DNA from: a virus
Taxonomy: Duplodnaviria > Heunggongvirae > Uroviricota > Caudoviricetes
IMG/VR virus record: IMGVR_UViG_3300026966_000012
Direction: 5' to 3' (one strand)
Length of the DNA stretch: 64,000 bases
Made by a program: the position numbers and the translations under genes. This document shows, piece after piece, positions 3,941-51,826 of the stretch. Within the stretch, counting starts at the first letter, position 1, and each line of letters starts with the position of its first letter. Below the pieces are notes generated by a model, which ran no database searches, had not been told where the DNA came from, and saw nothing but the letters and a program-made list of their open reading frames with translations.

Positions 3941-3977
3941 GTGTACGTACGTACAGACGCGTGTGTACGTACATACA
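3941..3977. repeat. alternating purine/pyrimidine (GTACGTACA) palindromic element
   Basis: gtgtacgtacgtacagacgcgtgtgtacgtacataca; family of 6 copies. Confidence 0.5.
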
Positions 3978-4076
3978 GCCTTTCGGAATCCTGACTTGTC
4001 AGAACCCTTTATTACCGTATCCTGAGAAGGATTACATGGACCTCGAGAAAGCCGAGGCCAGCTGGAGTGACCAGAG

Positions 4077-4388
4077 ATGACAGATACAGCACGACTTGTC
4101 GTGAATGGCTATGTGGAACCGAGCGAGCGAGATACCCGAATTGTGTCGATCCTGGGGAGTCTGGCCGGCGTCCCGGACGGCCACCAGTTCGACTATCGCG
4201 GGATGACGATCGAAAAGCGCGTGACGACCGAGCGAGCGCGGCGCGAACCCGAGATCGCTGTCTACGACCCTGACGGCGAGTACGTCGACCAGTTCCAACC
4301 GCTCCTGTTCTCGTCGTACGAGATCGTGGAGATGCTCGACGAGATGCGAGCCTACTGGGTCGAGGAGAGTCGCGCCACGGCACTGTGA
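4077..4388 (+). CDS. hypothetical protein
   Basis: 103 aa; module leader CCTCGAGAAAGCCGAGG + CCAGCTGGAGTGACCAGAG before the ATG. Confidence 0.55.
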   Translation: MTDTARLVVNGYVEPSERDTRIVSILGSLAGVPDGHQFDYRGMTIEKRVTTERARREPEIAVYDPDGEYVDQFQPLLFSSYEIVEMLDEMRAYWVEESRATAL

Positions 4389-4468
4389 TCGTGGCCGCGA
4401 CAGCGGTCGCAGTCGTGGTCGTCGGCCTGTGGCTGTTCTACGCCCTGGTCGTCTACCTCGAGTTGTGA
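4385..4468 (+). CDS. tiny hydrophobic peptide (27 aa, predicted single TM)
   Basis: GTG start overlapping the upstream stop (GTGA); VIVAATAVAVVVVGLWLFYALVVYLEL. Confidence 0.3.
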   Translation: MIVAATAVAVVVVGLWLFYALVVYLEL

Positions 4469-4486
4469 CCGAAAACTGGTATTTAC
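4469..4486 (+). promoter_or_regulatory. CGAAAACTGGTATWTA promoter motif, copy 1
   Basis: Same motif found upstream of the protease, sheath and TMP genes. Confidence 0.4.
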
Positions 4487-4520
4487 CGCGTGGGGCCTAC
4501 CGTGACATGGAGTACCAGAG

Positions 4521-4841
4521 ATGCCCCGACCGATCGAACGGATGGGTTGTGTTGCCGACCGACTGAGCGACGAGTGGGAGCTCGATGACATCGTGATCGA
4601 GCCGTCGGCGACCGTGACAGCAATCTACCGTCACGTATCCGGGGCGTACGTCATGTGGTCGGCCGACCCGGGACACACGGTACAGTTGTGGGAGGCCGAC
4701 GGATCGGTCGAGACGTGGCTCGATGACGACGAGTTCGCTGACCTGGATTCGGCGACCGAAACTGTCCAGACCTGCGTGGAAGTCATCGAACATGCGACCA
4801 ACCGCGCCCTACCACCAGCAGCGTCGACCCCGCGCCCGTAA
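4521..4841 (+). CDS. hypothetical protein
   Basis: 106-aa ORF, high GC3. Confidence 0.5.
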   Translation: MPRPIERMGCVADRLSDEWELDDIVIEPSATVTAIYRHVSGAYVMWSADPGHTVQLWEADGSVETWLDDDEFADLDSATETVQTCVEVIEHATNRALPPAASTPRP

Positions 4842-5016
4842 CGTTCCGCTTTTCCGCACCGCCTGCGCCAACCTGTCGACTTCCCGATTCAGTCTGACCT
4901 TGCTACGTTGTGTGATTACGGGCAAACACCTCAGATATACATATATTAATATTCACTCCACCCTTAGGTAGAAGTAGGCCAGGAAAACTGGCCCACCCGA
5001 ACGGAGATAGAGAAAG

Positions 5017-5166
5017 ATGCGATACAGAGTCTACGGTACGCACAGTGGCAACGAGTTTCAGGCACCTGTCGACGCAGTCGATGCGAGTGACGCGGTCGAC
5101 GAGTTCCTCGAGTCGGTCGAGGACCCGACCGAGTTCAGCGACGTCGAGGCCGAGGTCTGGGGGTAG
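5017..5166 (+). CDS. small acidic protein (49 aa)
   Basis: Untracked ORF after the module hairpin GGCCAGGAAAACTGGCC + CACCCGAACGGAG. Confidence 0.4.
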   Translation: MRYRVYGTHSGNEFQAPVDAVDASDAVDEFLESVEDPTEFSDVEAEVWG

Positions 5167-5169
5167 CCG

Positions 5170-5340
5170 ATGTCTGGCGAACCCCACACGGGCCCGATCG
5201 ACGCACACGTGTGCGAGCTCGAACCGCTCGATGGCGACGAGTTCGCGACCGTCCACAGCAAGGGCCAGTGCACGATCTGCGGGACCGTGACGACGCCGGC
5301 CCGGGGCGTGAAGAACGCGAAGCGACAGCGGATGTGGTAG
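5170..5340 (+). CDS. small zinc-ribbon-like protein (56 aa)
   Basis: Untracked ORF MSGEPHTGPIDAHVCELEPLDGDEFATVHSKGQCTICG... Confidence 0.35.
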   Translation: MSGEPHTGPIDAHVCELEPLDGDEFATVHSKGQCTICGTVTTPARGVKNAKRQRMW

Positions 5341-5342
5341 CG

Positions 5343-5651
5343 ATGGAGACAGAGAACGTCGCGATCGTCTCGCTGGAGGCGGCTGAAGTTGCCCGACGCG
5401 AGTTGGACATCCTGATTGAACAGACTGGCGGCCCGAACGCCGGGATCGATGAGTCGTGCTCGCCGATGGCCCTCGCGCGCCAACGCATCGAGCGCCTGGA
5501 AGGCGAAGGGATAGACCCGTTCACCGTGGCGACTGTGCTGCAAGTCATGTACGGCGTCGCGGAGGAGCGTGGTGTCGAGATCAGTAGCGCCGACCCGTTG
5601 CAGGACGACGTCTTCCGGGCACGAAGCGAGTTCGAGTCGGATCTCGAGTAG
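5343..5651 (+). CDS. hypothetical protein
   Basis: Internal ATG (METENVAIV) of track ORF 5211..5651, directly after the upstream stop. Confidence 0.45.
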   Translation: METENVAIVSLEAAEVARRELDILIEQTGGPNAGIDESCSPMALARQRIERLEGEGIDPFTVATVLQVMYGVAEERGVEISSADPLQDDVFRARSEFESDLE

Positions 5652-6059
5652 TCTCGACCCTGCTGCGGTTTGCATCGTTCCTGGTGGTAGTGAGCGGTTC
5701 GATTCCGTGACGATGCCTGGCCCCCGAGCCCTCAGACGATACGTTGATAGGTTCGCGGGGCCTATGCTCACGCGGCATCCGTTAGTGATGCCGTTCCGTT
5801 CGGGTGGGATAGCACGCGTCGGGCTGTCTCGGCAAGGGCAACCACGTCAGTCGAGATCAGAGGCTCGTGCAAACCCGTTGCCCGGGGCATTTGTCCCCGG
5901 GCGCCCTTTGGTACCGCCTCGAGCGAGAGCTCTTGTTCTCTGACATCGCGTATCCGCGCCCGAGCGCGCAAACCCGGTGTGATCATGCTACGATCCTGTT
6001 CTATCAGCAATATTATCTGACAAAGATATTATTATATCAGCTCCAGCCTAAGGTAAAGT

Positions 6060-6200
6060 ATGGCACGAAAAAGCCACTCGAGCGGAGATAGCGTGAACAA
6101 GCAGCGGTACCGCGGCAACGAGTCGACCGCCGACTTCGACCTGGGCGACGCACTGAGCCAGATCTCGGAGAGCCGCGAGGAGGACGAGGACGATGAGTGA
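6060..6200 (+). CDS. small acidic protein (46 aa), N-terminus MARKSHSSGD
   Basis: ATG inside the module hairpin TGGCACGAAAAAGCCA + CTCGAGCGGAG; untracked. Confidence 0.45.
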   Translation: MARKSHSSGDSVNKQRYRGNESTADFDLGDALSQISESREEDEDDE

Positions 6201-6402
6201 GCGCATGCACCGGGAGCCGAGCAAGTTCTCGGCTGACGAACTGTCAATCGGCGACGAGATCGTGGTCGCTGGCCTCGTCCACGAGGTCATGTCGGTGGGA
6301 GAGCCCGGGAAGCAGTGCCTCGTGCGGACGGACCGGGGCGCGTTCTCGAAAGACGGCCTGAGTAGCGGGATCGACGACGGCTCCGTGGAGGTGCGCGACT
6401 GA
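6193..6402 (+). CDS. hypothetical protein
   Basis: 69 aa; ATGAGTGA overlap. Confidence 0.45.
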   Translation: MSERMHREPSKFSADELSIGDEIVVAGLVHEVMSVGEPGKQCLVRTDRGAFSKDGLSSGIDDGSVEVRD

Positions 6403-6602
6403 TGCCGATGGCATGGGGCCTCGACGAGTCGTGCCCAGACTGTGGCGAGGACGAACTGATCTGGTGGACGAAAGACGAGACTGAACGTGTCGACGAGGTG
6501 AAGGTGGACTGCACCGCCTGCGGGATGGCGTTCCCGAAGGAGATCGTCGAGAAGACTGACGACACTCCTCGCGAGGAGATTGCACGGGGGATCGTCGCAT
6601 GA
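6402..6602 (+). CDS. zinc-ribbon protein
   Basis: CPDCG...CTACG. Confidence 0.5.
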   Translation: MPMAWGLDESCPDCGEDELIWWTKDETERVDEVKVDCTACGMAFPKEIVEKTDDTPREEIARGIVA

Positions 6603-7225
6603 GCTTCGAGTTCGACGAGGACTACGAGCTCGATGCGATGTTCGAGGGCGCGACCGAGTTCGACCCCGAGTACCAGCGCGAGCGGATGCGCGAACAGCTG
6701 GAGATCGCGGCCTGGGACATCCGTGAGGGACACGTCGAGGACGGCGAGACTTGGACGATCGAGGAGCCCAGCGTGCTGACGCCGGACCCGCTCGACGACA
6801 CCGACTTCGAATGGACGCTGCGCTTCGACGACATCGACGTGCTCGGTGACGAGAGTGTTCCCGGTGTGTTCGAAGTGATGGACCCGGAGGGAGAGTACGC
6901 CGGTCAGTTCGGTGCGTACGAGGATGGCGAGGAGCTGTTGAACGCGCTGGGCCACATCGCCCAGACGTTCCACCGCGACCGGGAGATCGCGAAGTTCCAC
7001 GCCCGCGTCGACGAGATGGAGCCCGGCGACAGTCACCTGCTCCCGAGTGGGAAGATCGAGCTGCGCGATGCCGAGAAGGCCGCGATCTTCGGCCCGGGTT
7101 ACGAGGAGCGGGTCGTGACCAACGCCGACAAAGTGACGCCGAAACTCGTCAAGCGCGTCGAGGGCGACTGGCGGGCTGAGATGCGCGAGAAGTACCGCGG
7201 GACCCCGATGGAGGAGGAGTTCTGA
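6599..7225 (+). CDS. hypothetical acidic protein
   Basis: 208 aa, high GC3. Confidence 0.55.
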   Translation: MSFEFDEDYELDAMFEGATEFDPEYQRERMREQLEIAAWDIREGHVEDGETWTIEEPSVLTPDPLDDTDFEWTLRFDDIDVLGDESVPGVFEVMDPEGEYAGQFGAYEDGEELLNALGHIAQTFHRDREIAKFHARVDEMEPGDSHLLPSGKIELRDAEKAAIFGPGYEERVVTNADKVTPKLVKRVEGDWRAEMREKYRGTPMEEEF

Positions 7226-7399
7226 ATGACCTACGAGATTCCGGCCAACGCAAGTGACAGAGACGAACGTATCGCCGAGCGGATGAACGAGATGCTGTTC
7301 AACGAGTTCGACATCCCGCTCGATGATTTCGAGATCCTGAGTGAAGAAGCAGGCTCGTTCGAGATCACGATCGAACCAGGTGTCGGGACGGTGGACTGA
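7226..7399 (+). CDS. small hypothetical protein (57 aa)
   Basis: Untracked; starts 1 nt after the upstream stop. Confidence 0.35.
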   Translation: MTYEIPANASDRDERIAERMNEMLFNEFDIPLDDFEILSEEAGSFEITIEPGVGTVD

Positions 7400-7539
7400 T
7401 GGGCGTCCCCGTGGGTGAGGCTGATGGTGAGTTCGCTGTGGAGCTGACGTGCGTCGCCTGTGAGGGCACGTTCGAGACCGATGAGACGATGCCCAACGAT
7501 TGCCCCGAGTGTGGGCGGCTGAGCTACACCGCGGCCTGA
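7399..7539 (+). CDS. small zinc-ribbon protein (46 aa)
   Basis: CVACEG...CPECG; followed by terminator motif CCGCTTTTGCGCACCGCCCCGTCG. Confidence 0.4.
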   Translation: MGVPVGEADGEFAVELTCVACEGTFETDETMPNDCPECGRLSYTAA

Positions 7540-7607
7540 CCGCGCTCCGCTTTTGCGCACCGCCCCGTCGAATGAGTTATCAGTTTTGCGGTAGTATCGC
7601 CGAATAG

Positions 7608-8120
7608 ATGAGTGACGATCGCAAGCCGTGGGAGAACCCCGTGACGCTGGCGCGGGCCTACGCCGAGTACGGCTCGGCTGAAGGCGTCGCTGACGCCTGG
7701 GGCTGTTCCGAACGGACGATCCGAACGTGGCTGCACGAGCACGACGAGATCCGCGTCAAGCGACAGGGTCGACGGCCGAGCTGGGAAGACACCGAGCCCC
7801 CGAACCACGTCCTCGAAGACGACGAGGGCTACGAGATCGTCGAGGCGTTCGTTCCCGTCCGCGACGACCGTGGCGAGCTCGTGAAGATCGAACGCAAAGC
7901 CGTCCGCATGCACCGGCTGATGTGTGTCCTCGAGTGGGGGTTCGACGCCGTCTGCGACATGGAAGTGCATCACCAGGATGGAATGAAGTTGCATAACTTG
8001 CCGCGGAACCTGGTGCCGCTCGATCACCTGACGCACGCGAACATGCAGACGCATCGGCGCTGGCGGATGCCCTGGGTCGGTGACTACGAACAGGGCGACC
8101 CCGGCCCAGTGGACGCGTAG
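7608..8120 (+). CDS. HNH endonuclease with an N-terminal HTH
   Basis: HTH segment GCSERTIRTWL; HNH core EVHHQDG...NLVPLDHLTHANM. Confidence 0.65.
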   Translation: MSDDRKPWENPVTLARAYAEYGSAEGVADAWGCSERTIRTWLHEHDEIRVKRQGRRPSWEDTEPPNHVLEDDEGYEIVEAFVPVRDDRGELVKIERKAVRMHRLMCVLEWGFDAVCDMEVHHQDGMKLHNLPRNLVPLDHLTHANMQTHRRWRMPWVGDYEQGDPGPVDA

Positions 8121-8135
8121 TGGGTTACGTCTGGT

Positions 8136-8282
8136 GCGTATCCCACGTGTCGCGCGCGTTTCACGGGTCGCGTATCCCGCGCGCGTTATCCCAGGTGCGT
8201 ATCCCGGGCCCTCGTTCTCGTGTACAGCGTATCCCTTGTGAGAGCACGCGAGAGCCCTCTCCCCCAGTAGAGATACGCACCC
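8136..8282. repeat. iteron-like cluster: 5 direct GCGTATCCC repeats plus 1 inverted copy
   Basis: Copies near 8136, 8170, 8183 (GCGTTATCCC), 8197 and 8227; inverted GGGTGCGTATC near 8272. Confidence 0.55.
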
Positions 8283-8391
8283 TTCGCATATCAATCGAGT
8301 TACGTAAGCAGCTATTGCCGATTCGGCGCCCCAGCGCGGCAACCCGGTGATTGCCAACCCCTAATCTATGACTCATGTTGATAAAGAAACA

Positions 8392-8399
8392 CTTAATAT
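8392..8399 (+). promoter_or_regulatory. TATA box of a cassette promoter
   Basis: acttaatatc lies about 26 nt upstream of the ATG at 8422. Confidence 0.45.
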
Positions 8400-8421
8400 C
8401 CCTCCACTCTTAGGTTAAGAT

Positions 8422-8583
8422 ATGGGACAAAAATCCCAACTCGGGCGGAACGAGGTACAGAGCGTCAAAATTGAAACGCAGGGCTCCCATGCTACGCTCT
8501 CACACATCGAGGGCGTGTGGATCGAGGATGGAGAGCTGGTCATCCGCACCCTCGAGGACTTGCCAATTCACGGAGAAATCTGA
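8422..8583 (+). CDS. small protein (53 aa), N-terminus MGQKSQLGRNE
   Basis: ATG embedded in hairpin TGGGACAAAAATCCCA; untracked frame (track ORF 8471..8809 is a different frame). Confidence 0.4.
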   Translation: MGQKSQLGRNEVQSVKIETQGSHATLSHIEGVWIEDGELVIRTLEDLPIHGEI

Positions 8584-8734
8584 GGCACGTCCTCCCACGG
8601 GACGCGCCCCCATGTCAAGCCTTCGTCCACGCGCAGCGGAGAGTGGCGGCGCCGACGGCTCGCCCTCGCGGGCCCGAGCGCGGCAAACCGGCACCATGCG
8701 ACGCCCGCGGAATCCCCGCAGTATCAGCCGTCTT

Positions 8735-8748
8735 ACATATATTAAATA
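8735..8748 (+). promoter_or_regulatory. TATA box of a cassette promoter
   Basis: acatatattaaata, about 27 nt before the ATG at 8772. Confidence 0.45.
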
Positions 8749-8771
8749 CCCTACCCTGAGTAGGAAGAAGT

Positions 8772-9107
8772 ATGGGACAAAAATCCCACCCCCGACCGGA
8801 GCAGTGTGAAGTGCCAGGGTACTACTGGACCGCCCCCGAAGTCGTCGAGTGCTGGCGCGACCCCGAGGACGTGCTGATCGCGTGGGACGACGGTGTGTAC
8901 GTGCTGTGTGTCGGCGAGCCGGCCGAGCATGCGAGTGAGTCAGGGCGACCGCTGTGGTACGCGCCCGAAGTGCGAGTGCACGACGTGTTCGTCGACGGCG
9001 AGCGATTCGAGCTGATCGAGCGCGACGACGAGCGCCTGCGCAACGTGCGGGAAGTGAGAGTGACGCACGGGACTGCAAGCGCCGTCGCCGAGCTCGAGTC
9101 AGCGTGA
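8772..9107 (+). CDS. hypothetical protein, N-terminus MGQKSHPRPE
   Basis: ATG inside hairpin TGGGACAAAAATCCCA followed by CCCCGACCGGAG. Confidence 0.55.
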   Translation: MGQKSHPRPEQCEVPGYYWTAPEVVECWRDPEDVLIAWDDGVYVLCVGEPAEHASESGRPLWYAPEVRVHDVFVDGERFELIERDDERLRNVREVRVTHGTASAVAELESA

Positions 9108-9187
9108 TCGTCGCCGTCGTCGCGCTGCTGGTGGTGCTGATAGGGCTCGCCGTGTTCTGGGCTGTCGTGCGGGCGATGGCGTCGTAG
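9104..9187 (+). CDS. tiny hydrophobic peptide (27 aa)
   Basis: GTGA overlap; VIVAVVALLVVLIGLAVFWAVVRAMAS. Confidence 0.3.
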   Translation: MIVAVVALLVVLIGLAVFWAVVRAMAS

Positions 9188-9336
9188 GGCCCTGTCGCGT
9201 GCCGCTTTCCCGCCGCGCCCCGTCGACCGCCGTCTGTCGTTTCCCCTCCGTCCACTCCGTCACCTCCGCGCGCCGCGTCACTGAAACCCGGTGTCCATGC
9301 CACGATCCGTACCCGACGACAATATCAGCCGATTAA

Positions 9337-9349
9337 CATATCTATATAC
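9337..9349 (+). promoter_or_regulatory. TATA box of a cassette promoter
   Basis: catatctatatac. Confidence 0.45.
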
Positions 9350-9371
9350 TTGCCCCAGACGAAGGTTAAGT

Positions 9372-9575
9372 ATGGCACGAAAATGCCTCCCGGACGGGTA
9401 CAGCTGGACAGTCGACGGTGAAGACGCGCAGACGACCGAGATCTACGTCGAGAACGCAGAGGGTGAGCTGATCGGCAAAGACCACGTGGCGTCGCAGTTC
9501 GTGCGAACCGACGCCGAGCGCGAGGAAGTTGCGGCGCAGATCGCCGCGGGTGAGCGGGGGCGTCAGTTCCAGTAG
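9372..9575 (+). CDS. hypothetical protein, N-terminus MARKCLPDG
   Basis: ATG inside hairpin TGGCACGAAAATGCC; internal ATG (index 27) of track ORF 9291..9575. Confidence 0.5.
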   Translation: MARKCLPDGYSWTVDGEDAQTTEIYVENAEGELIGKDHVASQFVRTDAEREEVAAQIAAGERGRQFQ

Positions 9576-9689
9576 AGCGGCGCCGACTGTCGGTTTTACG
9601 CCGTGCCCCGTCGACCATGCGACGTTCAGCGGAAGTCGACAATATCAGCTGTCATACATATATTCATATTCGCTCCCGACCAAGATAAG

Positions 9690-9806
9690 ATGGGGAGAAA
9701 AGCCCCACCCGACGGAACCATGAGCTACGCGACCCACGTCCAGATCCGGAAGTTGCAGAGAGCGAGAGACAAGAGCCGCTGGCCGAGCGACGAGGACGAC
9801 GAGTAG
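9690..9806 (+). CDS. small protein (38 aa), N-terminus MGRKAPPDG
   Basis: ATG inside hairpin TGGGGAGAAAAGCCCCA + CCCGACGGAAC. Confidence 0.4.
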   Translation: MGRKAPPDGTMSYATHVQIRKLQRARDKSRWPSDEDDE

Positions 9807-9833
9807 CGGGGCCGCCGCGGCCCCCTCGCCGAC

Positions 9834-9872
9834 GCGTGTGTACGTACATACGCGCCCATATGTACGTACGCC
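9834..9872. repeat. GTACGTACA alternating purine/pyrimidine palindrome
   Basis: gcgtgtgtacgtacatacgcgcccatatgtacgtacgc. Confidence 0.5.
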
Positions 9873-9990
9873 CATCTCGAACCCTCACGTGCCCGAGCGC
9901 GGCAAACCGGCACCCTGCGACGTCCGTCACAAGTCGACACATATCAGCCGCTTTACGTGTCTTTAATACCCTACCAGCCCAAGGTATAGT

Positions 9991-10353
9991 ATGGAAGCCA
10001 AAAACTTCCCACCGCGAACGGTGCAGAGCGCAGAGCCAACCGACGTCGTCGAAGAAGACGGCTACCGAGTCCTGACGTACGAGGACGTCGACGTCGACAT
10101 TCGGATCTCGCGGACGATCAGCCCCGAGACGCCGAAAATCTGGGTCGCCGGCGACCGACTCGACACGCAAGTGGAGACGGTGACCGACGTCGAGTTCCTC
10201 GGCTTCGAGCTCTGGCGATACACCTACCTCGAGGGTAAGCCGACCCATGCCGGTGAGGGTCGACACCGAGGCCGATTCGCCGAGGTCGAGATCGAGGAGA
10301 ATCACTACGGCGAAGACGAAGTCCACGAGTTCAGCCTCAGGGTCAAGCGGTAG
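9991..10353 (+). CDS. hypothetical protein, N-terminus MEAKNFPPRT
   Basis: ATG in hairpin TGGAAGCCAAAAACTTCCCA. Confidence 0.55.
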   Translation: MEAKNFPPRTVQSAEPTDVVEEDGYRVLTYEDVDVDIRISRTISPETPKIWVAGDRLDTQVETVTDVEFLGFELWRYTYLEGKPTHAGEGRHRGRFAEVEIEENHYGEDEVHEFSLRVKR

Positions 10354-10394
10354 ACGGGGCTGACGCCCGGTTTCGCGCGCCGCCCCGCCGCCCG

Positions 10395-10700
10395 ACGACC
10401 CCTGTTTCCACTCCGTCTGGTCCAACGCGGAATAGTAGAGGAAATTATTATTTGCAGAGATCGAGCCCTGAATACAACCCGCCTCAGCGAGGTTCATGGG
10501 CGCTACACGTCGGCGAGTTTTGTGAGGCATGGCTCCTACCCCTTCGAGTTGGCTCACGGCATTCCGAGCGTCGTGTGGACGGTGTCTCCGCGAGGTTCGT
10601 GGGCATCTCAGGAAATGCCCCCTGATGATACGAGAACCCCTGTTTCCCTTCCGCGTGCCGCGTCACGCGAATCCGGCACGCGCCATGCGACGTCGACGTC
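10395..10700. ncRNA. copy B of a conserved roughly 250-300 nt non-coding element (candidate ncRNA or regulatory repeat)
   Basis: Aligns with 1..335 and 14085..14335; core CTCCTACCC..GCTCACGGC, GCRTCTCAGG, CCCCTGTTTCC. Confidence 0.35.
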
Positions 10701-10724
10701 CATCCAGCAGTAACAGCCGTCTTA

Positions 10725-10737
10725 CATATCTATATAC
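10725..10737 (+). promoter_or_regulatory. TATA box of a cassette promoter
   Basis: catatctatatac. Confidence 0.45.
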
Positions 10738-10760
10738 CTGCACCACTCTTAGGATAAGAT

Positions 10761-11138
10761 ATGGGAACCAAAAACCCATCCGAAGCGGAACAGAGCGACG
10801 AGATCCTCCCGGCCCTCGACCACCGCGGACTGACGGGCCACGGCAAGGCCCGACTCGAGGAGAGCGAGCTCGTGACCCCGTACCTCGTGCGGACCCTCCA
10901 GGAGGCGGACCCGGCCATCCTCCGGGCCCTCTCGCAAGTGGCTGACGCCGCCGCCTCGGCCCGGTACGGCCCCATCCAGGCCCAGCTGGCCAAGGACGAA
11001 AGCGCGAGCCGCGAGATCCAGCAGCAGTACTGGAACCAGCTGGACGACGTGAAGGGCCTGTCCCTCCTCTGCACGGAAATCCTGCGCGACGAGCGTGACG
11101 GCGTGCCCAGCGAGGACGACCCGAGACTCGGCTTCTAA
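10761..11138 (+). CDS. hypothetical protein, N-terminus MGTKNPSEAE
   Basis: ATG in hairpin TGGGAACCAAAAACCCA. Confidence 0.55.
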   Translation: MGTKNPSEAEQSDEILPALDHRGLTGHGKARLEESELVTPYLVRTLQEADPAILRALSQVADAAASARYGPIQAQLAKDESASREIQQQYWNQLDDVKGLSLLCTEILRDERDGVPSEDDPRLGF

Positions 11139-11504
11139 CGCCGACCAGCGCACTACCACCAGCAGCGGCTGGCCTGCGCACCGGTTTTCCGCCGTGCCCC
11201 GTCGCCCACGTGACCCTCGTTTCCGCTCCGCCCGCGACTGTCTCGTGCGATCGTCGCGCCCTGCTTGCGTACGTGTCCCCCCACTGTTACGCTCGTCACG
11301 CCTGCGTTCGCGGCCTGTGCTATCCGCGTCCGACCCCTGTTTCATCTCCGCGTGCCAAGGCGCGGCAACCCGGTGGCGTCCCCGTCAGCAAACGGGCCCT
11401 TTCTGCAAGCAATCCGACACTGAAATCTATAAAACGCTGTCTCAAGCCCTCTACACGAGGATTTAGACCAGAACCTTTATATCAAATCAAGTTCAAGAAG
11501 AAGT

Positions 11505-11744
11505 ATGGAATCAAAAATTCCATCCCGGACGGAGAGTGGCGAGAGTGTCGAAATCGCAGTCGGTCACCGAGCGGAGAGCGACGTCATCGCGCGGGCGCTC
11601 AACGAGAAGGCGCGGGAAGCCGAGCTCGAAGCGGAGCGGGCCGGGCCGAAAACGCAGCCCGTGCACGAGCTCGACGCCGCCGTGCTGCGAAGCGCCGCCG
11701 CCGAGTTCGAGCGCGAGTACGCCGAGTGGCGCGAGGAGCGATAG
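11505..11744 (+). CDS. hypothetical protein, N-terminus MESKIPSRTE
   Basis: ATG in hairpin TGGAATCAAAAATTCCA + TCCCGGACGGAG. Confidence 0.5.
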   Translation: MESKIPSRTESGESVEIAVGHRAESDVIARALNEKAREAELEAERAGPKTQPVHELDAAVLRSAAAEFEREYAEWREER

Positions 11745-16029: not shown

Positions 16030-16082
16030 GGCCCCGGCTCCCGCCTCGGCCTACGCGCGCCAAGGCGCCGCAACCCGGCAAC

Positions 16083-16120
16083 GCGTGTGGGTACGTACCG
16101 ACGTGTGTGTATGTACAGAC
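16083..16120. repeat. GTACGTACA alternating purine/pyrimidine element (degenerate copy)
   Basis: gcgtgtgggtacgtaccgacgtgtgtgtatgtacagacg. Confidence 0.4.
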
Positions 16121-24134: not shown

Positions 24135-24172
24135 AGCGTGTGTACGTACATACGCGCCCATACGTACATACA
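24135..24172. repeat. GTACGTACA alternating purine/pyrimidine palindrome
   Basis: gcgtgtgtacgtacatacgcgcccatacgtacataca; adjacent to dispersed motif CCACTACCACCAGAAGCG. Confidence 0.5.
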
Positions 24173-24192
24173 CCCCCTGAAGCCCTCCCCAA

Positions 24193-31030: not shown

Positions 31031-31066
31031 CGCACGTACATATACACACGCACATATGTACGTGCA
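31031..31066. repeat. perfect 34-36 nt alternating purine/pyrimidine palindrome (Z-DNA-prone)
   Basis: cgcacgtacatatacacacgcacatatgtacgtgca; identical copy at 51791. Confidence 0.6.
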
Positions 31067-44418: not shown

Positions 44419-44854
44419 AGACGACGGCTCTACTGACGCCGATACTGACGTCGACGAAATGGGGCTGGACCCTGACAACGAAATCGTGTACTTCGAGCGA
44501 CGACAGGAGGACGAAAGCGAGTTCCCTGATACGTATCGCGACGCGCAGATACGAGAACTCGCAAACTCTCGGGAGACGCTGGCGATCGAGTTGACGCTTC
44601 GCCAACTTCAGGGGTGGGCGGATACACTCGGAGCGAAACTCTCCGAACAGCGGCGTCGGGTTGGAGAAGATCTCGCGGCCGTCGACGAGGTGTACATCCT
44701 CTACCGGACGAGAGATGGAATCAAAGTCGACGCGAAGGGTGTCGCGTTCACACTCAGAGCGGCGAAAGAGGCACAAATGGAGCTGAGATCTGATCTCGAC
44801 GAACCGTGGTGTGAGGAAATAGAGCTCGAAACACTCCCGTTTTTCACGGGCTAA
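44411..44854 (+). CDS. hypothetical protein
   Basis: Internal ATG (index 113) of track ORF 44072..44854. Confidence 0.45.
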   Translation: MSEDDGSTDADTDVDEMGLDPDNEIVYFERRQEDESEFPDTYRDAQIRELANSRETLAIELTLRQLQGWADTLGAKLSEQRRRVGEDLAAVDEVYILYRTRDGIKVDAKGVAFTLRAAKEAQMELRSDLDEPWCEEIELETLPFFTG

Positions 44855-45012
44855 CTACGCGCCCTCACACGCACTCTAACGGAATCCGATGCCCGGCCCA
44901 TACTGGTCCTTACTATACGGATACAACAGATACAACGCCTATACAGCACCTTCTGAGCGATCATTATGTTTAGATAATAGGGTTTTTATCCCATACCGCC
45001 ATACTAACGGAG

Positions 45013-45669
45013 ATGACACTGGTGGCCGAGTTCAGTGTGACGACGCCGATTCTGGAAGATACTCGCTTGTCGTTCCCACATATATCACTCGAGATGGTGA
45101 GTCTCTATCTCACAGAGGACGGTCAGGTAAAGTTAGTGCTATGGGTTGAAGGAGATGGTGAGGAGGAGTTTTTTATGGAAATGCAGCACGATATGACAGT
45201 GGATGACGTGGAGGTGTTGGCACACCTCGATGATGACTCCCGAATCCTGTGCTCGGTGGTACTGACTGAAGAAGCGTCAAAGATGACGTCATACTCACAG
45301 GTAGTCGAATCGGATGTCGTTTGGATCAGTGTGGTCATGCAGGGAGACAGGGGCCGATGGTTGGTTCGGATACACGACAGAGACCGTCTGAGCCGATTCG
45401 TTCGAGGGATACGAGACGAGAATAATGAATCGATTCAACTGGTGAGTCTGTACGACGATGCCGAGATGAAACGTGGTGAGCGAGGACGGGTAGAGGTTTC
45501 TGTGCCCCAGTTAGATGCGCTGTCTACCGCGTACGAGATGGGGTACTTCGACAATCCACGACGAGCATCACTCGATCAGGTGGGTGATCAGCTGGGGATC
45601 TCGTCTGGAGCTGTGAGTGGACGGATCAGACGGGCTGTGAGAACATTGGTTCGAGAGACCGTAGAGTAG
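45013..45669 (+). CDS. HTH_10 (Bat/bacterio-opsin-activator type) transcriptional regulator
   Basis: C-terminal QLDALSTAYEMGYFDNPRRASLDQVGDQLGISSGAVSGRIRRAVRTLV is the haloarchaeal HTH_10 signature; lower GC3 than neighbours. Confidence 0.65.
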   Translation: MTLVAEFSVTTPILEDTRLSFPHISLEMVSLYLTEDGQVKLVLWVEGDGEEEFFMEMQHDMTVDDVEVLAHLDDDSRILCSVVLTEEASKMTSYSQVVESDVVWISVVMQGDRGRWLVRIHDRDRLSRFVRGIRDENNESIQLVSLYDDAEMKRGERGRVEVSVPQLDALSTAYEMGYFDNPRRASLDQVGDQLGISSGAVSGRIRRAVRTLVRETVE

Positions 45670-45990
45670 ATTGTGGGCGTGAGTAACAGATGGTTATACA
45701 TAAAGTATTGATAGCGACACGGTACGTGTTATAGCCATATGCGGCGATTGATCGGTAGAGAGGAGTCTGGCCAAAACCACCGCCTAAACAGGTAGTATTT
45801 TATTTTTATGTAATGGTTTAATGTCCAACTCTAAATAGCTATTTCAGGCTCTCTAAGAACTGTTTATAGTAATTCTGTCTATTTAAGAAGACTGATACAA
45901 CGTAACACTTATCTCCTAATCGCGACAAGGTACGAGTACCCCTCGGCGAAGGGGGTCGTCCCACGACGGGACGCGGCTACCCACACCTCC
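45670..45990. other. AT-rich non-coding region (lowest GC in the window); candidate origin or regulatory region
   Basis: A/T runs such as tattttatttttatgtaatggtttaatg; no ORFs. Confidence 0.35.
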
Positions 45991-45994
45991 CCAG

Positions 45995-46372
45995 ATGTCG
46001 ACAGCCACACGAAACCAATCGGTAGAGATTGGTACAGAAACGACGACGCTCGTCCGGGTCGCTATAGAAGATGGCGACCATGGATACGTTATCGTCCAGT
46101 TCGAAACGGACTACGAGCCCGCAACGCACTCAGAAGTACAGGAGCGAGTGCGGGCAATGTGGAACAATCTCCCCGTCCGCGAGTATCGGACACTTGCCGG
46201 CCGAGTAGTTACACAGTGGCCCGGTGCTGTCGCTGGTGTCTGTGGTGGAGTTCTTCAACACGATCCGTCCCAAGAGACATGGCATTGCGAACATTGCGAT
46301 GTCCGACTTCCCCCAGGAGTCTGGGCGGCTCATGTTGAAGGCTGCTTTCGCTCACAGTGGAGAGATCAATGA
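45995..46372 (+). CDS. hypothetical protein
   Basis: C-terminal HCEHCD. Confidence 0.5.
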   Translation: MSTATRNQSVEIGTETTTLVRVAIEDGDHGYVIVQFETDYEPATHSEVQERVRAMWNNLPVREYRTLAGRVVTQWPGAVAGVCGGVLQHDPSQETWHCEHCDVRLPPGVWAAHVEGCFRSQWRDQ

Positions 46373-46812
46373 CGACAGAACCAACTGACGTACTGGAAGA
46401 ACAGAAAGCAACATTCGAAGCGAAGAATGAGGACTACTCGGACACGTGGATCGTGTCGGGTATCGCCCTCTCCTCGCTTCACGACGAGCCCGTGGTGCTC
46501 GATTCAGACATCGACCACATCGTGAACGGAAACGTTCACCGTCTCCTCGACAAGGTGCTGCGCGGCTACAGCGCAACGATCATCAACGACGACGTCAACT
46601 TCGAAGCGGCGGTTGACTCGTTCAGAGATGCAGCAACCTACGCGGCGATGCTCGCGTCGGTGCTCGAGGGAGAACCAACGGAACGGCTTCACACGGCGTA
46701 CGATAACGCCCTCGCAGGCGGTATCGACGAAGGCGATCTCGATGTGCTGATCAACGCCCACGAGAGTAGTACACCGACCAGCATCGGCTACAGCCCGGAG
46801 GACCCGCGATGA
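46357..46812 (+). CDS. putative all-alpha NTP pyrophosphohydrolase (MazG-like), weak
   Basis: Adjacent to a clear MazG-like gene; EDYSDTW. Confidence 0.3.
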   Translation: MERSMTTEPTDVLEEQKATFEAKNEDYSDTWIVSGIALSSLHDEPVVLDSDIDHIVNGNVHRLLDKVLRGYSATIINDDVNFEAAVDSFRDAATYAAMLASVLEGEPTERLHTAYDNALAGGIDEGDLDVLINAHESSTPTSIGYSPEDPR

Positions 46813-50236: not shown

Positions 50237-50355
50237 TCGCGTAGACTCACCGTTTTTCGGATAGCTTGAAACCAAACGAGTGGAAGCCACTCGTGTATGA
50301 AAACACTCTTAATCTGATAGTACCAAGAATGTGATAACGCCTCCCCAGGTGTCAC

Positions 50356-51165
50356 ATGGACAAAGAAACAACGGAAGTGTCGGCCCACACCAACTGGGTC
50401 CACCCGCAGCTGCGAAACGCGGGCTTCGATATCTTCGACGTGGAGGGGTACAGTCTGGACGAGGACGCGGATTCGGTCGAGCTGTTCATCGACCGCCGGA
50501 GAGTCCGCGACGTCCGAGGGTACAACGCTGGCCGAGTCTGGCGCGAACTACAGCAGACAGTCGACGATACAGAACTGGAGGCGAAGGAGCGGCTCGCCAC
50601 GCGCGCAGGCTGTGACTACGTCGTCGCGGTCTATGACGACAAACGCGTCCGAGTGTACCGAGTAGACAGCCAGGGTGTCGAAACGATCACCGAGGAACTG
50701 TCCTTCCCCGAGTTCGGTGTCTGGGTGTTCAGCCACAACTCGACGACCGAGCTCGGTAAGGAGTTCATCCACGACGACGACTTCCCGACGCTGGACGCGG
50801 CCCTGAGACAGAACGGGACGCCGTGGCCGCCGAACCTCGATGGGTTCTGGTACGACGATGATGGGGTGCAGTGTCTCATCGAGTATCAGACCACGAACGT
50901 CACGTCCCCGGCGAATCACTCGAACAACCGCTATTTCTCACAGGACCACGGCCGCTGGAAACACCTCTGGGGGCTGGCACAGGCGCTCGACCTCCCGCTC
51001 GTGATCGTCGTCTGGTCGCCCAACGAGAAGTACCAGAACGAAGTGAAGGTAAAGATCGTCCACGAGGTCAACTTCAGCGGTCGTGACCGCGGCCTGTCTT
51101 ACTCCAGTGTGCAGCTGCTGGAGCCAGCGCAGGTGAGTGACGAGATCCGGATGGTGGCCCAATGA
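50356..51165 (+). CDS. hypothetical protein
   Basis: 269 aa. Confidence 0.5.
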   Translation: MDKETTEVSAHTNWVHPQLRNAGFDIFDVEGYSLDEDADSVELFIDRRRVRDVRGYNAGRVWRELQQTVDDTELEAKERLATRAGCDYVVAVYDDKRVRVYRVDSQGVETITEELSFPEFGVWVFSHNSTTELGKEFIHDDDFPTLDAALRQNGTPWPPNLDGFWYDDDGVQCLIEYQTTNVTSPANHSNNRYFSQDHGRWKHLWGLAQALDLPLVIVVWSPNEKYQNEVKVKIVHEVNFSGRDRGLSYSSVQLLEPAQVSDEIRMVAQ

Positions 51166-51530
51166 CGTTCGAGTACCAGCACGCCCGGGCCGACCGGGTC
51201 GTCGACGGTGACACGATCTGGATGACAGTGGATGTTGGGTTCTACCAGTACGTGAAGATCCCGTTCCGACTCATCGACGTCGATACGCACGAGATCCACT
51301 TCGTTAGCCACGATAGCGAGGAGTACAAGCAGGGAATGGTGGAGAAACAGTTCGTCATCGATTGGCTCACTGAAGCTGAGCTCGGTCGTGGCGACTGGCC
51401 GCTGGAGCTGATCACATACGGCACCGGAAAGTACGGTCGGTGGTTGGCCTACGTCAAGCGCAAGAGTGACGGCGCGATCCTGAACGAGGACCTGCTCGAC
51501 GCGTTCGACGACATTCGGTACGGTGAGTGA
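51162..51530 (+). CDS. SNase-like (thermonuclease) nuclease
   Basis: RVVDGDTIWM and a staphylococcal-nuclease-like layout. Confidence 0.55.
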   Translation: MTFEYQHARADRVVDGDTIWMTVDVGFYQYVKIPFRLIDVDTHEIHFVSHDSEEYKQGMVEKQFVIDWLTEAELGRGDWPLELITYGTGKYGRWLAYVKRKSDGAILNEDLLDAFDDIRYGE

Positions 51531-51789
51531 GATGGGGCGTGAGAGCGTACCGGTCAGTCGTCGCGACCTGCTGATCGCCCTGGGCGCCGGGTCCGTAACA
51601 CTGGCTGGCGACTTCGTCAGAACGAGAACGACAGTCGTTGGGGACGAGTGTGAGCCAGTGACGGTGTGTACACCCACCGGATACGGTGACTGTGGCTACG
51701 GTGAGGGTCCCTTTGGCGGAACCGACCCGAGCGCCGACTTGCTCGGCTACAGTGAGGGTGGGTACGGGACCGGAGGATACGGCGGATAG
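51523..51789 (+). CDS. small Tat-signal secreted Gly-rich protein
   Basis: Twin-arginine SRRDLLIALGAGS; GYG repeats. Confidence 0.5.
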   Translation: MSEMGRESVPVSRRDLLIALGAGSVTLAGDFVRTRTTVVGDECEPVTVCTPTGYGDCGYGEGPFGGTDPSADLLGYSEGGYGTGGYGG

Positions 51790-51790
51790 G

Positions 51791-51826
51791 CGCACGTACA
51801 TATACACACGCACATATGTACGTGCA
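51791..51826. repeat. perfect alternating purine/pyrimidine palindrome (identical to 31031 copy), followed by a T-run
   Basis: cgcacgtacatatacacacgcacatatgtacgtgca + gggtttta. Confidence 0.6.

What the first reader, a model, noticed from the sequence alone, without database searches (positions are those of the whole stretch)
3941..51826. Six alternating purine/pyrimidine GTACGTACATA palindromes (Z-DNA-prone) at module boundaries
Copies lie near 3941, 9834, 16083, 24135, 31031 and 51791. The last two are identical 36-mers (cgcacgtacatatacacacgcacatatgtacgtgca) that are perfectly alternating Pu/Py for 34 nt and also perfect inverted repeats (11-bp arms, 8-bp spacer). Copies 9834 and 24135 are GCGTGTGTACGTACATACGCGCCCATA(T/C)GTACGTACA. 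All are intergenic and sit at transitions between functional blocks: after the GHKL gene, inside the cassette array, at the end of the array, before the terminase, after the NTP-transferase block, and before the lone minus-strand gene. They could be cruciform or Z-DNA forming boundary elements, bidirectional terminators, or recombination hot spots that delimit exchangeable modules.
Basis: seen in the sequence. Interest (0 to 1): 0.7.

Follow-up and report, generated by a model that had tools for sequence, protein, structure and literature searches.

The report
Conserved purine–pyrimidine alternating intergenic repeats
A virus of salt-loving archaea carries a small family of ~36-bp intergenic elements in which related genomes have preserved the strict purine/pyrimidine alternation more than the exact letters or the hairpin, which points to a DNA-shape (Z-DNA-prone) signal placed at the ends of gene blocks.

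Summary
Six intergenic sites (3940, 9832, 16082, 24136, 31031, 51790) are the only strongly purine/pyrimidine-alternating tracts in the 64 kb. 31031 and 51791 are identical 36-mers.

The window is part of a haloarchaeal myovirus. The same element family sits at matching positions in a metagenomic relative (~80% nt). It is also in a complete 148.9-kb plasmid-prophage of cultured Halobaculum halophilum (12 copies) and in two more distant contigs.

Across 13 distinct 36-mers, 24 columns vary: 23 only by transitions, one by a transversion. In flanking DNA transversions outnumber transitions. So the alternation itself is under selection, including in the unpaired centre.

Hairpin potential beats dinucleotide shuffles only for the two identical copies, and covariation is not significant. 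Copies within one genome resemble each other more than their orthologues.

Most elements lie 1–120 nt (a few ~260–280 nt) after a stop codon and lack the T-runs found at other gene ends. No recombinase or Y1 transposase was found.

Best reading (~35%): DNA-level, supercoil-responsive non-B (Z-prone) punctuation of transcription units. Rivals are transcript-end hairpins and protein-binding sites. The function is untested, but it can now be tested in a cultured host.

The parts
3940..3977 (.). Element W1 (array type). Two alternating blocks, 3940-3955 and 3957-3977: CGTGTACGTACGTACA-G-ACGCGTGTGTACGTACATACA. It lies 281 nt after the GHKL-ATPase stop (3658) and 31 nt before the TATA-like TTTATTA at 4008.
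   Evidence: Orthologues at L019:11883 and pHh 79642. Hairpin no better than shuffles, z -0.7.
9832..9871 (.). Element W2, inside the cassette array: ACGCGTGTGTACGTACATACGCGC-C-CATATGTACGTACGC. It has 11-bp inverted arms and an 8-nt spacer, and lies 25 nt after the stop of a small ORF (9806).
   Evidence: The same 36-mer occurs on the metagenome contig L238. Fold z -1.4. Probable positional counterpart at pHh 84681.
16082..16120 (.). Element W3, at the right edge of the hypervariable cassette array: CGCGTGTGGGTACGTACCGACGTGTGTGTATGTACAGAC. It is the most degenerate copy and lies 52 nt after the stop at 16029.
   Evidence: 25 of 29 steps. Fold z +0.9. Probable counterpart at pHh 90706.
24136..24173 (.). 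Element W4: GCGTGTGTACGTACATACGCGC-C-CATACGTACATACAC. It lies 15 nt after the stop at 24120, ends 19 nt before the TerL start codon (24193), and directly follows a CTACCACCAGAAGCG motif (24124-24138).
   Evidence: Orthologues at L001:8500 and pHh 100605-100643 with dense invariant columns. Fold z -1.8.
31031..31066 (.). Element W5 (long type): CGCACGTACATAT-ACACACGCAC-ATATGTACGTGCA. All 36 nt alternate, with 12-bp perfect arms. It lies 5 nt after the stop of the DUF5802 gene (31025) and is followed by a ~500-nt non-coding stretch.
   Evidence: Orthologues at L001:18012, pHh 107682 and L265:10985. DNA hairpin z -4.3. Best Z-score of the window.
51790..51826 (.). Element W6, identical to W5 and wedged between convergent genes. 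The + strand stop is at 51787-51789 and the - strand stop at 51832-51834. TTTT follows at 51830.
   Evidence: Orthologue at L010:4649. It is absent from pHh, where the convergent genes abut at 126359/126360. It lies at the edge of a ~660-nt segment found only in the window and the metagenomic relative.

Best explanation
The six sites belong to a conserved family of ~36-40-bp DNA-level structural elements. Their selected property is unbroken purine/pyrimidine alternation, with a partial dyad as a secondary feature. They sit just downstream of gene blocks in a genome transcribed almost entirely in one direction. I propose that the duplex itself is the signal. Under the torsional stress that transcription (and replication) creates between neighbouring units, the tract flips to a left-handed or other non-B form, or serves as a preferred type-II topoisomerase/gyrase substrate. 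Either way it would absorb or resolve supercoils, insulate adjacent transcription units and hinder read-through. Shown: the family exists, it is confined to intergenic DNA after stop codons, it is positionally conserved in several genomes, alternation is under purifying selection, and copies are homogenised within a genome. Inferred from sequence comparison: the elements work in either orientation. Inferred without direct evidence: the B-to-Z (or other) transition, any topoisomerase involvement, and the effect on transcription.
For: (1) An unbiased alternation scan finds exactly the 6 window sites and exactly 12 sites in the complete related replicon pHh, all intergenic. (2) In the alignment of 13 distinct 36-mers from four genomes, 24 columns vary: 23 by transitions only and 1 by transversion. 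This includes the central 10 nt, which no hairpin needs. The background ts:tv is 0.63-0.9 in both coding and intergenic DNA, giving P about 6e-9 to 5e-7. Orthologues differ at 11-12 of 36 positions with no transversion (W5/H5, W7/H7). (3) Copy W7, just beyond the window (L263:7819-7854), has lost its dyad (fold z +0.6) yet is perfectly alternating for 36 nt. (4) More distant relatives (TerL 68-69% identical) keep 36-39-nt alternating tracts in which most ACGTAC boxes are replaced: L265:10985, which is the E5 orthologue, and L271:4090. (5) On a crude B-Z energy scale the six elements are the six best 36-nt segments of the window (27.0-30.1 against the next best 32.9 kcal/mol). In pHh the ten best are all elements. 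The best segment in 64-kb Markov simulations averages 31.9. (6) Elements in pHh appear in both orientations: H72352 and H52796 match the reverse complement of H36727 and H5248 (my comparison of the sequences). (7) The host is a salt-in halophile: median protein pI is 4.4 and the relative resides in Halobaculum. High salt favours Z-DNA (PMC2643941). Z-DNA formation in Halobacterium plasmids and a non-B-DNA, supercoiling-stimulated bop promoter have been reported; I saw only the titles, cited in PMC12123511 and PMC3184054.
Against: There is no structural or transcript data. The tracts are rich in TA steps (5 of 18 in W5), the least favourable Z-forming step. With 24-nt windows they barely beat chance CG-rich segments. 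The metagenomic relative and the array-type copies break the alternation (GCGC-C-CATA, CAGAC), so perfection is not required. 22 of 36 columns are also >=90% conserved at base level, which a sequence-reading protein would explain equally well. W6 lies between convergent genes, where positive supercoiling is expected; that opposes Z-DNA formation, although it fits a gyrase site. The genome encodes a DpdA homologue. If guanines are replaced by 7-deazaguanines, Z-DNA could be disfavoured (from memory, unverified). The cited title of Kim et al. 1996 says Z-DNA in Halobacterium was stabilised by supercoiling but not by salinity.
Confidence: 0.35

Rival explanations
1. Transcript-end elements acting through a hairpin in the RNA (or a cruciform). 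This would be REP-like extragenic palindromes that terminate transcription or protect mRNA 3' ends at the ends of operons, in both directions for the copy between convergent genes.
For: Most elements start 1-120 nt after the preceding stop codon, and a few ~260-280 nt after it, in the window and in pHh. W6 sits snugly between convergent stops. W5/W6 form a 12-bp stem, z -4.3. 90.5% of the cells in the 13-bp arms pair, and three pairs show compensatory changes. A hairpin without a T-run terminated 59% of transcripts in Haloferax in vivo (PMC7237163).
Against: Neither pairing nor covariation exceeds the shuffle controls. W1, W2, W3, W4 and W7 fold no better than dinucleotide shuffles. There is no sense-strand advantage: the - strand folds better in 10 of 15 copies. 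T5 runs, the efficient haloarchaeal terminator, follow TerL, RNR and other genes but not the elements, except TTTT after W6. A hairpin does not explain the alternation across the loop. No RAYT-type transposase was found.
Confidence: 0.22
2. Binding sites for a virus-encoded sequence-specific DNA-binding protein. This could be an HTH_10/BAT-type, PadR-type or other HTH regulator, or a partition/condensation factor. It would recognise paired GTAC-containing boxes (TGTACGTACA or GTACNNAC repeated at ~18-22 bp).
For: 22 of 36 columns are >=90% conserved, and the ends TGYACGTAC...GTACGTRCA are nearly invariant. E1 and E4 are much better conserved than their flanks in three genomes. Each genome has its own flavour shared by its copies, as expected if the sites co-evolve with a genome-specific binder. 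The window encodes an HTH_10/BAT regulator (45013-45669) and other HTH proteins, and pHh encodes PadR, HTH_3, HTH_10 and ParB proteins.
Against: The spacing between boxes is not fixed: the spacer is 8-12 nt and the GTAC positions shift. The distance to the next promoter varies from ~20 to ~500 nt, and one site has no downstream promoter at all. Distant relatives have replaced the boxes but kept the alternation. Transition-only change at 23 of 24 variable columns is not what base-specific readout predicts.
Confidence: 0.2
3. Recombination or gene-conversion sites. These would be either lox/FRT-like targets of a site-specific recombinase (inverted arms around an asymmetric spacer) or recombination hot spots that delimit exchangeable modules and cassettes.
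For: W5/W6 have a 12 + 10 + 12 lox-like architecture. Copies within a genome share spacer variants that differ between genomes: 5 differences are shared by both W5/W6 against R5/R6, and W7 carries the window-type spacer. W6 lies at the edge of a ~660-nt indel relative to pHh. W1 and W3 flank the hypervariable cassette array.
Against: No integrase, recombinase or Y1 transposase was found among ~70 window proteins or in the listed annotation of the complete related replicon. Its 'transposase' is only an HTH_Tnp_1 domain. The window, the relative and pHh are collinear with no inversion or deletion between sites. There is no step in sequence identity at the elements. Spacer length varies, and a 10-nt spacer is longer than the 6-8 nt of known tyrosine-recombinase sites.
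Confidence: 0.07
4. Promoter-associated elements, either weak TATA-like boxes or a supercoiling-sensitive 'RY box' such as the one reported for the Halobacterium bop promoter. The comparison is with the promoter-bearing intergenic repeats of halovirus HF2.
For: W4 ends 19 nt before the TerL start codon, so its TACATA lies about -28 to -23 if the mRNA is leaderless. The orthologue in the relative lies ~30 nt upstream. The elements are AT-richer than the genome. HF2 intergenic repeats carry promoters (PMC8707807).
Against: Separate canonical TATA boxes lie 30-150 nt downstream of W1, W2, W3, W7 and several relatives' copies. W5 has no gene for 500 nt, and W6 faces the 3' ends of two genes.
Confidence: 0.06
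5. Functionless low-complexity DNA: microsatellite-like (GTAC)n/(CA)n/(TA)n tracts produced by slippage and spread by gene conversion.
For: pHh copies contain (GTAC)3-4 runs. Copies are homogenised within a genome.
Against: The positions are conserved in up to four genomes that differ by 20-35% in their flanks. The length is constrained to ~36-40 nt. Transversions are absent although they dominate the background. The elements occur only in intergenic DNA after stop codons.
Confidence: 0.05

Closest known systems
Z-DNA-forming alternating purine-pyrimidine tracts / 'RY box' of the Halobacterium bop promoter (Yang et al. 1996; Kim, Yang & DasSarma 1996)
   Same: Both involve alternating Pu/Py sequence in a haloarchaeal replicon, proposed to respond to supercoiling. 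The elements here are the top-ranked Z-prone 36-mers of their genomes.
   Different: The bop RY box is a single ~11-bp tract inside one promoter (from memory; I saw only titles). Here there is a multi-copy 36-40-bp family, mostly at 3' ends of gene blocks, TA-rich, with a partial dyad and a comparative signature of selection on the alternation. No structural data exist.
REP/BIME repetitive extragenic palindromes of enterobacteria
   Same: Both are ~35-40-bp imperfect palindromes, extragenic, placed after stop codons or between convergent genes, with genome-specific sequence shared by all copies. REPs are reported to bind gyrase and to stabilise mRNA 3' ends (established knowledge, from memory).
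   Different: There are only 6-12 copies per ~150-kb replicon. No RAYT/Y1 transposase was found. The hairpin is not a family-wide property. The defining constraint here is Pu/Py alternation, which REPs do not show.
Intergenic repeats (IR class I/II) of halovirus HF2 (PMC8707807)
   Same: Both are short repeats confined to intergenic regions of a haloarchaeal tailed virus. Both are conserved in related viruses and mark transcription-unit boundaries.
   Different: HF2 IRs are AT-motif promoters (BRE/TATA/INR) located upstream of genes. The elements here mostly sit after stop codons, with separate TATA boxes downstream. In this window the promoter-bearing repeats are a different family (CAGTATCAGCCG..TATATAC..ATATGGGAC).
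Haloarchaeal transcription terminators (T-stretch; hairpin S12) (PMC7237163)
   Same: Both lie in intergenic DNA shortly after stop codons. A hairpin alone can terminate ~59% of transcripts in Haloferax.
   Different: The elements lack T5 runs, which the same genome uses after TerL and RNR. Most copies have no significant hairpin.
loxP/FRT-type recombinase core sites
   Same: W5/W6 have 12-bp inverted arms around an asymmetric spacer. The spacer is identical in the two direct copies and co-varies between genomes.
   Different: The spacer is 10 nt and variable in length. No recombinase gene was found and no rearrangement between copies is seen in three collinear genomes.

Membership tests
Z-DNA-forming sequence | Uninterrupted purine/pyrimidine alternation over at least ~12-14 bp | tested here: met
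   Runs of 36-37 nt (W5, W6), 21-24 nt (W1, W2, W4) and 17 nt (W3). pHh copies reach 36-38 nt.
Z-DNA-forming sequence | Energetically favourable step composition (CG > CA/TG >> TA) | tested here: inconclusive
   W5 has 4 CG, 9 CA/TG and 5 TA steps. The elements are the top six 36-nt segments on a crude energy table, but with 24-nt windows they barely differ from chance CG-rich segments. The energy values were recalled from memory.
Z-DNA-forming sequence | Demonstrated B-to-Z transition (supercoil-dependent, chemical or antibody/Z-alpha probing) | not testable with these tools
   No experimental data. The cultured carrier Halobaculum halophilum Gai3-2 (NZ_CP058532.1) makes the test feasible.
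REP/BIME extragenic palindromes | Multi-copy imperfect palindrome restricted to extragenic DNA at 3' ends or between convergent genes | tested here: inconclusive
   The location requirement is met. But only 6-12 copies exist, and only W5/W6 fold better than shuffles.
REP/BIME extragenic palindromes | Associated RAYT (IS200/IS605-like Y1) transposase | tested here: not met
   No Y1_Tnp hit among ~70 window proteins. The pHh 'transposase' WP_179171719.1 has only an HTH_Tnp_1 domain. Caveat: the window's own genome extends beyond the window.
Archaeal intrinsic terminator | Oligo-T stretch (T5) at the termination point | tested here: not met
   Only W6 is followed by TTTT. T5 runs occur after TerL (25857), RNR (50253) and elsewhere. 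The motif definition is from PMC7237163.
Archaeal hairpin terminator | Stable RNA hairpin just upstream of the 3' end, maintained by covariation | tested here: inconclusive
   90.5% of cells pair and there are 3 compensatory pairs, but the shuffles do equally well. There is no sense-strand bias. RNA 3' ends cannot be tested here.
Tyrosine-recombinase core site (lox/FRT-like) | Inverted arms around a 6-8-bp asymmetric spacer of fixed length | tested here: not met
   The spacer is 10 nt in W5/W6, 8 nt in W2, and variable or absent in pHh copies.
Tyrosine-recombinase core site (lox/FRT-like) | Cognate recombinase gene and rearrangements between sites | tested here: not met
   No integrase or recombinase in the window or in the listed annotation of the complete pHh. 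The genomes are collinear.
HF2-type promoter-bearing intergenic repeats | BRE/TATA motif at about -24 to -28 from a transcription start | tested here: inconclusive
   Only W4 (and R4) lies at a suitable distance from a start codon. The other copies have separate TATA boxes or no downstream gene. TSS data are unavailable.
Operator of a dimeric transcription factor | Half-sites at fixed spacing and fixed position relative to a promoter | tested here: not met
   Both the half-site spacing and the distance to the promoter vary.

The most novel reading that the evidence does not exclude
Natural selection acts directly on Z-DNA-forming (non-B) potential. A haloarchaeal virus/plasmid-prophage lineage uses ~36-bp B-Z switches as genome punctuation, with one tract at the end of each major transcription block. 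These tracts would buffer or signal transcription-driven supercoiling in a high-salt cytoplasm. If so, this would be the first repeat family in a prokaryotic virus whose comparative signature (transition-only evolution, sequence turnover with the Pu/Py pattern preserved) identifies DNA conformation rather than sequence or RNA structure as the conserved trait.
Probability: 0.25. Interest if true: 0.85.

Novelty: new variant of a known kind. Interest (0 to 1): 0.62.

Why it matters
Whether Z-DNA or other non-B structures have a selected function in prokaryotes, and especially in halophiles whose cytoplasm should favour them, has been open for decades. Most evidence comes from in-vitro or plasmid assays on artificial repeats. 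Here a natural multi-copy element shows an evolutionary signature that points at the Pu/Py pattern itself: 23 of 24 variable columns change only by transition against a transversion-rich background, and the sequence turns over while the alternation is kept. The same family is present on a complete plasmid-prophage in a cultured strain, Halobaculum halophilum Gai3-2. So the question becomes directly testable by probing, Term-seq, Topo-seq, and transition-versus-transversion mutagenesis. Even if the answer turns out to be a terminator or a protein site, it would define a new regulatory punctuation mark for an almost unstudied lineage of large haloarchaeal myoviruses.

Tried and rejected
- RAYT/REP mobilisation: no Y1 transposase was found, and the pHh 'transposase' is HTH-only.
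- lox-like recombination: no recombinase, collinear genomes.
- Mosaic breakpoints at the elements: the 1-kb identity tracks against both relatives show no step there.
- Sense-strand RNA optimisation: the - strand folds as well or better in 10 of 15 copies.
- Covariation test on the 13-bp arms: not above the shuffles.
- Known RNA families and tRNAs: none.
- Restriction-site avoidance: GTAC and ACGT occur at expected frequency genome-wide, so the elements are not islands of an otherwise avoided site.
- Occurrence in cellular genomes: the motif scan of 185,579 species genomes gave only six unrelated bacterial hits.
- Cultured phage records: no match to the 46-mer, the TerL region DNA or the portal protein.
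- Fetching more relatives through a cassette protein, the DUF5802 protein or an NTP-transferase alignment gave nothing new.
- In one search one comparison (E7, window against pHh) was out of register. It was redone.


Full report
**1. The observation**

- GTACGTACATA with at most one mismatch occurs 15 times on the two strands against 0.37 expected.
- 31031-31066 and 51791-51826 are identical 36-mers.
- A listing of purine/pyrimidine-alternating runs gives 36 and 37 nt for these two, 21-24 nt for 3957, 9832 and 24136, and 17 nt for 16101.
- A scan I designed without reference to the motif (at least 25 alternating steps of 29 in a 30-nt window) returns exactly the six sites and nothing else in 64 kb. 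Markov-simulated sequences give 1.4 such sites on average.
- All seven GTACGTAC octamers of the window are inside the sites.

- The perfect copies have 12-bp arms and a 10-nt asymmetric spacer.
- 24136 carries a direct, not inverted, second half.
- 3940 and 16082 are two shorter alternating blocks broken by AGAC/CGAC.

**2. Context**

The window is GC-rich (0.53-0.66) and its genes are almost all on the + strand. Its proteins are very acidic, with a median pI of 4.4.

It encodes a TerL, a GHKL ATPase, an NDP-sugar transferase, ThyX, a DpdA homologue, a class II RNR, an HTH_10/BAT regulator and a tail sheath. It is therefore part of a large haloarchaeal myovirus.

The elements lie close behind stop codons:

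| Element | Distance after the preceding stop |
|---|---|
| W6 | 1 nt |
| W5 | 5 nt |
| W4 | 15 nt |
| W2 | 25 nt |
| W3 | 52 nt |
| W1 | 281 nt |

W6 is also 5 nt from the stop of the lone minus-strand gene. The distance to the next promoter or start codon ranges from 19 nt (W4 to the TerL start) to about 500 nt (W5). About 35 other gaps >100 nt carry no element.

**3. Relatives**

- **Relative R.** The window is collinear, at 78-89% nucleotide identity, with IMG/VR contig 3300027007_000012. A 154.8-kb ENA contig matches the same virus.
- **W7.** Contig JGI12479J12853_1000745 (L263) is the same virus continuing past the window end. It carries a seventh copy, W7.
- **Relative H (pHh).** A TerL search led to a complete, annotated, circular 148,857-bp replicon of a cultured archaeon: Halobaculum (Halorarum) halophilum Gai3-2 plasmid unnamed3, NZ_CP058532.1. 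It has ParA/ParB plus a full myovirus gene set and is collinear with the window over pHh 76-137 kb.
- **More distant contigs.** L265 (relative D) and L271 have TerL 69% and 68% identical.

Orthologous elements are present in these relatives:

| Position | Copies |
|---|---|
| E1, after the GHKL gene | W1, R1, H79642 |
| E4, before TerL | W4, R4, H100605 |
| E5, after the DUF5802 gene | W5, R5, H107682, D (L265:10985) |
| E6, between convergent genes | W6, R6; absent in pHh |
| E7, in the baseplate module | W7, R7, H5248 |

pHh has exactly 12 sites by the unbiased scan. All are intergenic and lie 16-260 nt after the upstream stop.

**4. What is conserved**

I aligned 13 distinct 36-mers from four genomes end to end (A2).
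- 12 columns are invariant and 24 vary.
- 23 of the 24 vary only by transition, and one (column 22, A/C) by transversion.

In the same genome pairs, transversions outnumber transitions in both coding and intergenic DNA. The ts:tv ratio is 0.63-0.65 against pHh and 0.9 against R. The chance of 23 or more of 24 is about 6e-9 to 5e-7.

Orthologues differ at up to a third of their positions without a single transversion: W5/H5 11:0, W7/H7 12:0, R0b/H72352 4:0. This is the same as saying that each lineage has kept the Pu/Py pattern while the letters turned over. It includes the central 10 nt, which no stem requires.

- W7 has lost its dyad yet is perfectly alternating for 36 nt.
- L265 has changed both arms (ACGTAC to ACATAC, GTACGT to GTATGT).
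- L271 carries GCGTATGTATACATGTGTACGTATGTATACATACACACG, with hardly any shared boxes but 39 nt of alternation.

**5. The hairpin**

- 90.5% of cells pair in the 13-bp arms and three pairs change on both sides. The shuffle control gives the same numbers, and sliding the partner by two columns still leaves 63% paired, because the sequence is periodic.
- Against dinucleotide-preserving shuffles, only W5/W6 fold significantly (z -4.3). The others are W4 -1.8, W2 -1.4, W1 -0.7, W7 +0.6 and W3 +0.9.
- RNA folds show no sense-strand advantage.

So the dyad is real in some copies but is not the family-wide property.

**6. Concerted evolution**

- W5 and W6 are identical and differ from R5/R6 at five positions that R5 and R6 share. 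R5 and R6 differ from each other at only one position.
- W7 carries the window-type centre (ACACACGCAC), while its orthologue R7 carries the R-type centre.
- pHh copies fall into near-identical pairs: 5248/36727 and 52796/72352.

Copies within a genome are homogenised, or they co-evolve with something specific to that genome.

**7. Tests of specific mechanisms**

- **Terminators.** T5 runs, the efficient haloarchaeal signal (PMC7237163), follow TerL, RNR and other genes here but not the elements. Only W6 has TTTT. A bare hairpin can terminate ~59% of transcripts in Haloferax, so W5/W6 could still do so.
- **Recombinase or transposase.** None was found among ~70 window proteins or in the pHh listing. 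The annotated 'transposase' is an HTH_Tnp_1 protein.
- **Module exchange.** The genomes are collinear and the identity tracks show no step at the elements. However, W6 sits at the edge of a ~660-nt indel, and W1 and W3 bracket the hypervariable cassette array.
- **Operators or promoters.** Spacing and promoter distance vary. Separate TATA boxes follow W1, W2, W3 and W7. Only W4/R4 lie at a promoter-like distance from a start codon.
- **Z-propensity.** I used a crude dinucleotide energy table recalled from Ho et al. 1986. The six elements are the six best 36-nt segments of the window (27.0-30.1 against the next best 32.9 kcal/mol). In pHh the ten best are all elements. The best segment in simulations averages 31.9. 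With 24-nt windows the margin is small.

**8. Interpretation**

The only property shared by all copies in all genomes, and demonstrably protected from mutation, is Pu/Py alternation over ~36-40 bp in intergenic DNA at the 3' ends of gene blocks, apparently in either orientation. That is the classical sequence requirement for Z-DNA. It is also, from memory, a preference of type II topoisomerases. The host cytoplasm is high-salt, and non-B DNA and supercoiling effects have precedent in Halobacterium (titles cited in PMC12123511 and PMC3184054; PMC2643941).

I therefore rank a DNA-level, supercoil-responsive structural punctuation element first, at about 0.35. The conformational switch and its consequences are inferred, not shown.

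Weaknesses of this reading:
- The tracts have a high TA content.
- Breaks in the alternation are tolerated in some lineages.
- Base-level conservation is substantial: 22 of 36 columns are >=90% conserved.
- W6 sits between convergent genes, where positive supercoiling is expected.
- Guanines may be modified to 7-deazaguanine through DpdA.

Rivals are transcript-end hairpins (0.22), a sequence-reading protein (0.20), recombination sites (0.07), promoter elements (0.06) and neutral low-complexity DNA (0.05).

**9. Novelty**

Full-text searches found promoter-bearing intergenic repeats in HF2 (PMC8707807) and general Z-DNA and halophile literature. They found nothing describing this family.

It is best filed as a new variant of known kinds: Z-prone RY tracts and REP-like extragenic repeats. 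It has an unusually clean comparative signature and a cultured system in which to test it.

Noticed in passing
window, 29 sites, e.g. 1463, 4809, 11153, 16157, 24124, 27679, 47637, 52425 (+) and 5676, 19576, 22013, 49750, 57734 (-): The 15-mer CTACCACCAGMAGCG (<=2 mismatches) occurs 29 times on both strands against 0.23 expected. It occurs in several reading frames inside genes (portal-like ORF, RNR) and just after stop codons. It abuts element W4 and, in relatives, W7/R7/R4. It is enriched in the window's virus and in relative R but nearly absent from pHh (2 hits in 149 kb), L265 and L266. It looks like a lineage-specific DNA-level signal of unknown function.
   Followed up: partly
whole window; also pHh (L267-L269): The tetranucleotide CTAG is completely absent (0 observed against ~54 expected in the window, and 0 in the 148.9-kb plasmid). 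The other 4-bp palindromes, including GTAC and ACGT, are at expected frequency.
   Followed up: partly
window 1788-16618: A hypervariable cassette array of small genes. Each is preceded by a repeated promoter-like unit (CAGTATCAGCCG..ACATATCTATATAC..AAGATATGGGACAAAAATCCCA) and accompanied by CCGCTTTTGCGCCGTGCCCCGCCG (8 copies) and GCGCGGCAACCCGGC repeats. The stretch from about 5.9 to 16.3 kb has little or no nucleotide-level match in either relative.
   Followed up: no
window 20634-20796, 32725-32788, 36878-36986: These intergenic gaps contain tRNA-like T-arm sequences (GGTTCGATTCCGACC, GGGGTTCGAATCCCC, GGCGGTTCAACTCCGCC). ARAGORN and Rfam (including the permissive E-value mode) find no tRNA. 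They may be tRNA fragments, degenerate tRNA genes or att-like remnants.
   Followed up: partly
L001:8890-10004 (TerL) and L010:360-1430 (RNR); proteins P0004 and P0006: Relatives carry ~1.1-kb insertions inside TerL and RNR. These are intein/LAGLIDADG in P0004/P0006 by precomputed Pfam. The window's TerL and RNR lack them.
   Followed up: no
NZ_CP058532.1 (L267-L269): 'Plasmid unnamed3' of Halobaculum halophilum Gai3-2 is a complete myovirus-like plasmid-prophage. It has ParA/ParB, a DNA polymerase, a helicase, TerL, portal, sheath, tape measure and baseplate genes, and is collinear with the window. It is a cultured handle on this otherwise metagenome-only lineage. A contig of 320,643 bp carries a TerL identical to the window's.
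   Followed up: partly
window 52522-52540, 59516-59532; L263 ~7885-7900: A conserved promoter-like motif, GAAAACTGGTATATA (BRE + TATA), precedes the head, sheath and baseplate gene blocks. It is probably the late-promoter class.
   Followed up: no
window 39806-40915: A DpdA (DNA transglycosylase) homologue suggests that the viral DNA may carry 7-deazaguanine modifications. This could affect both restriction and non-B DNA formation.
   Followed up: no
window 31067-31562: A ~500-nt non-coding stretch follows W5. Its first ~40 nt (AAAGGGTAGAGNNTCTGAAAG..ATTAGGTAGG) is better conserved with relative R than typical intergenic DNA. It may be a ncRNA or a regulatory region.
   Followed up: no
window 3988-3999: A small inverted repeat, CTGACTTGTCAG, lies between element W1 and the TATA-like box at 4008. 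It is invariant in the window and pHh and has one change in relative R. It looks like an operator for the first cassette promoter.
   Followed up: no
window 44000-46400: A low-GC island (0.53 against ~0.60) with atypical codon usage contains the HTH_10/BAT-type regulator gene (45013-45669) and long AT-rich non-coding flanks.
   Followed up: no
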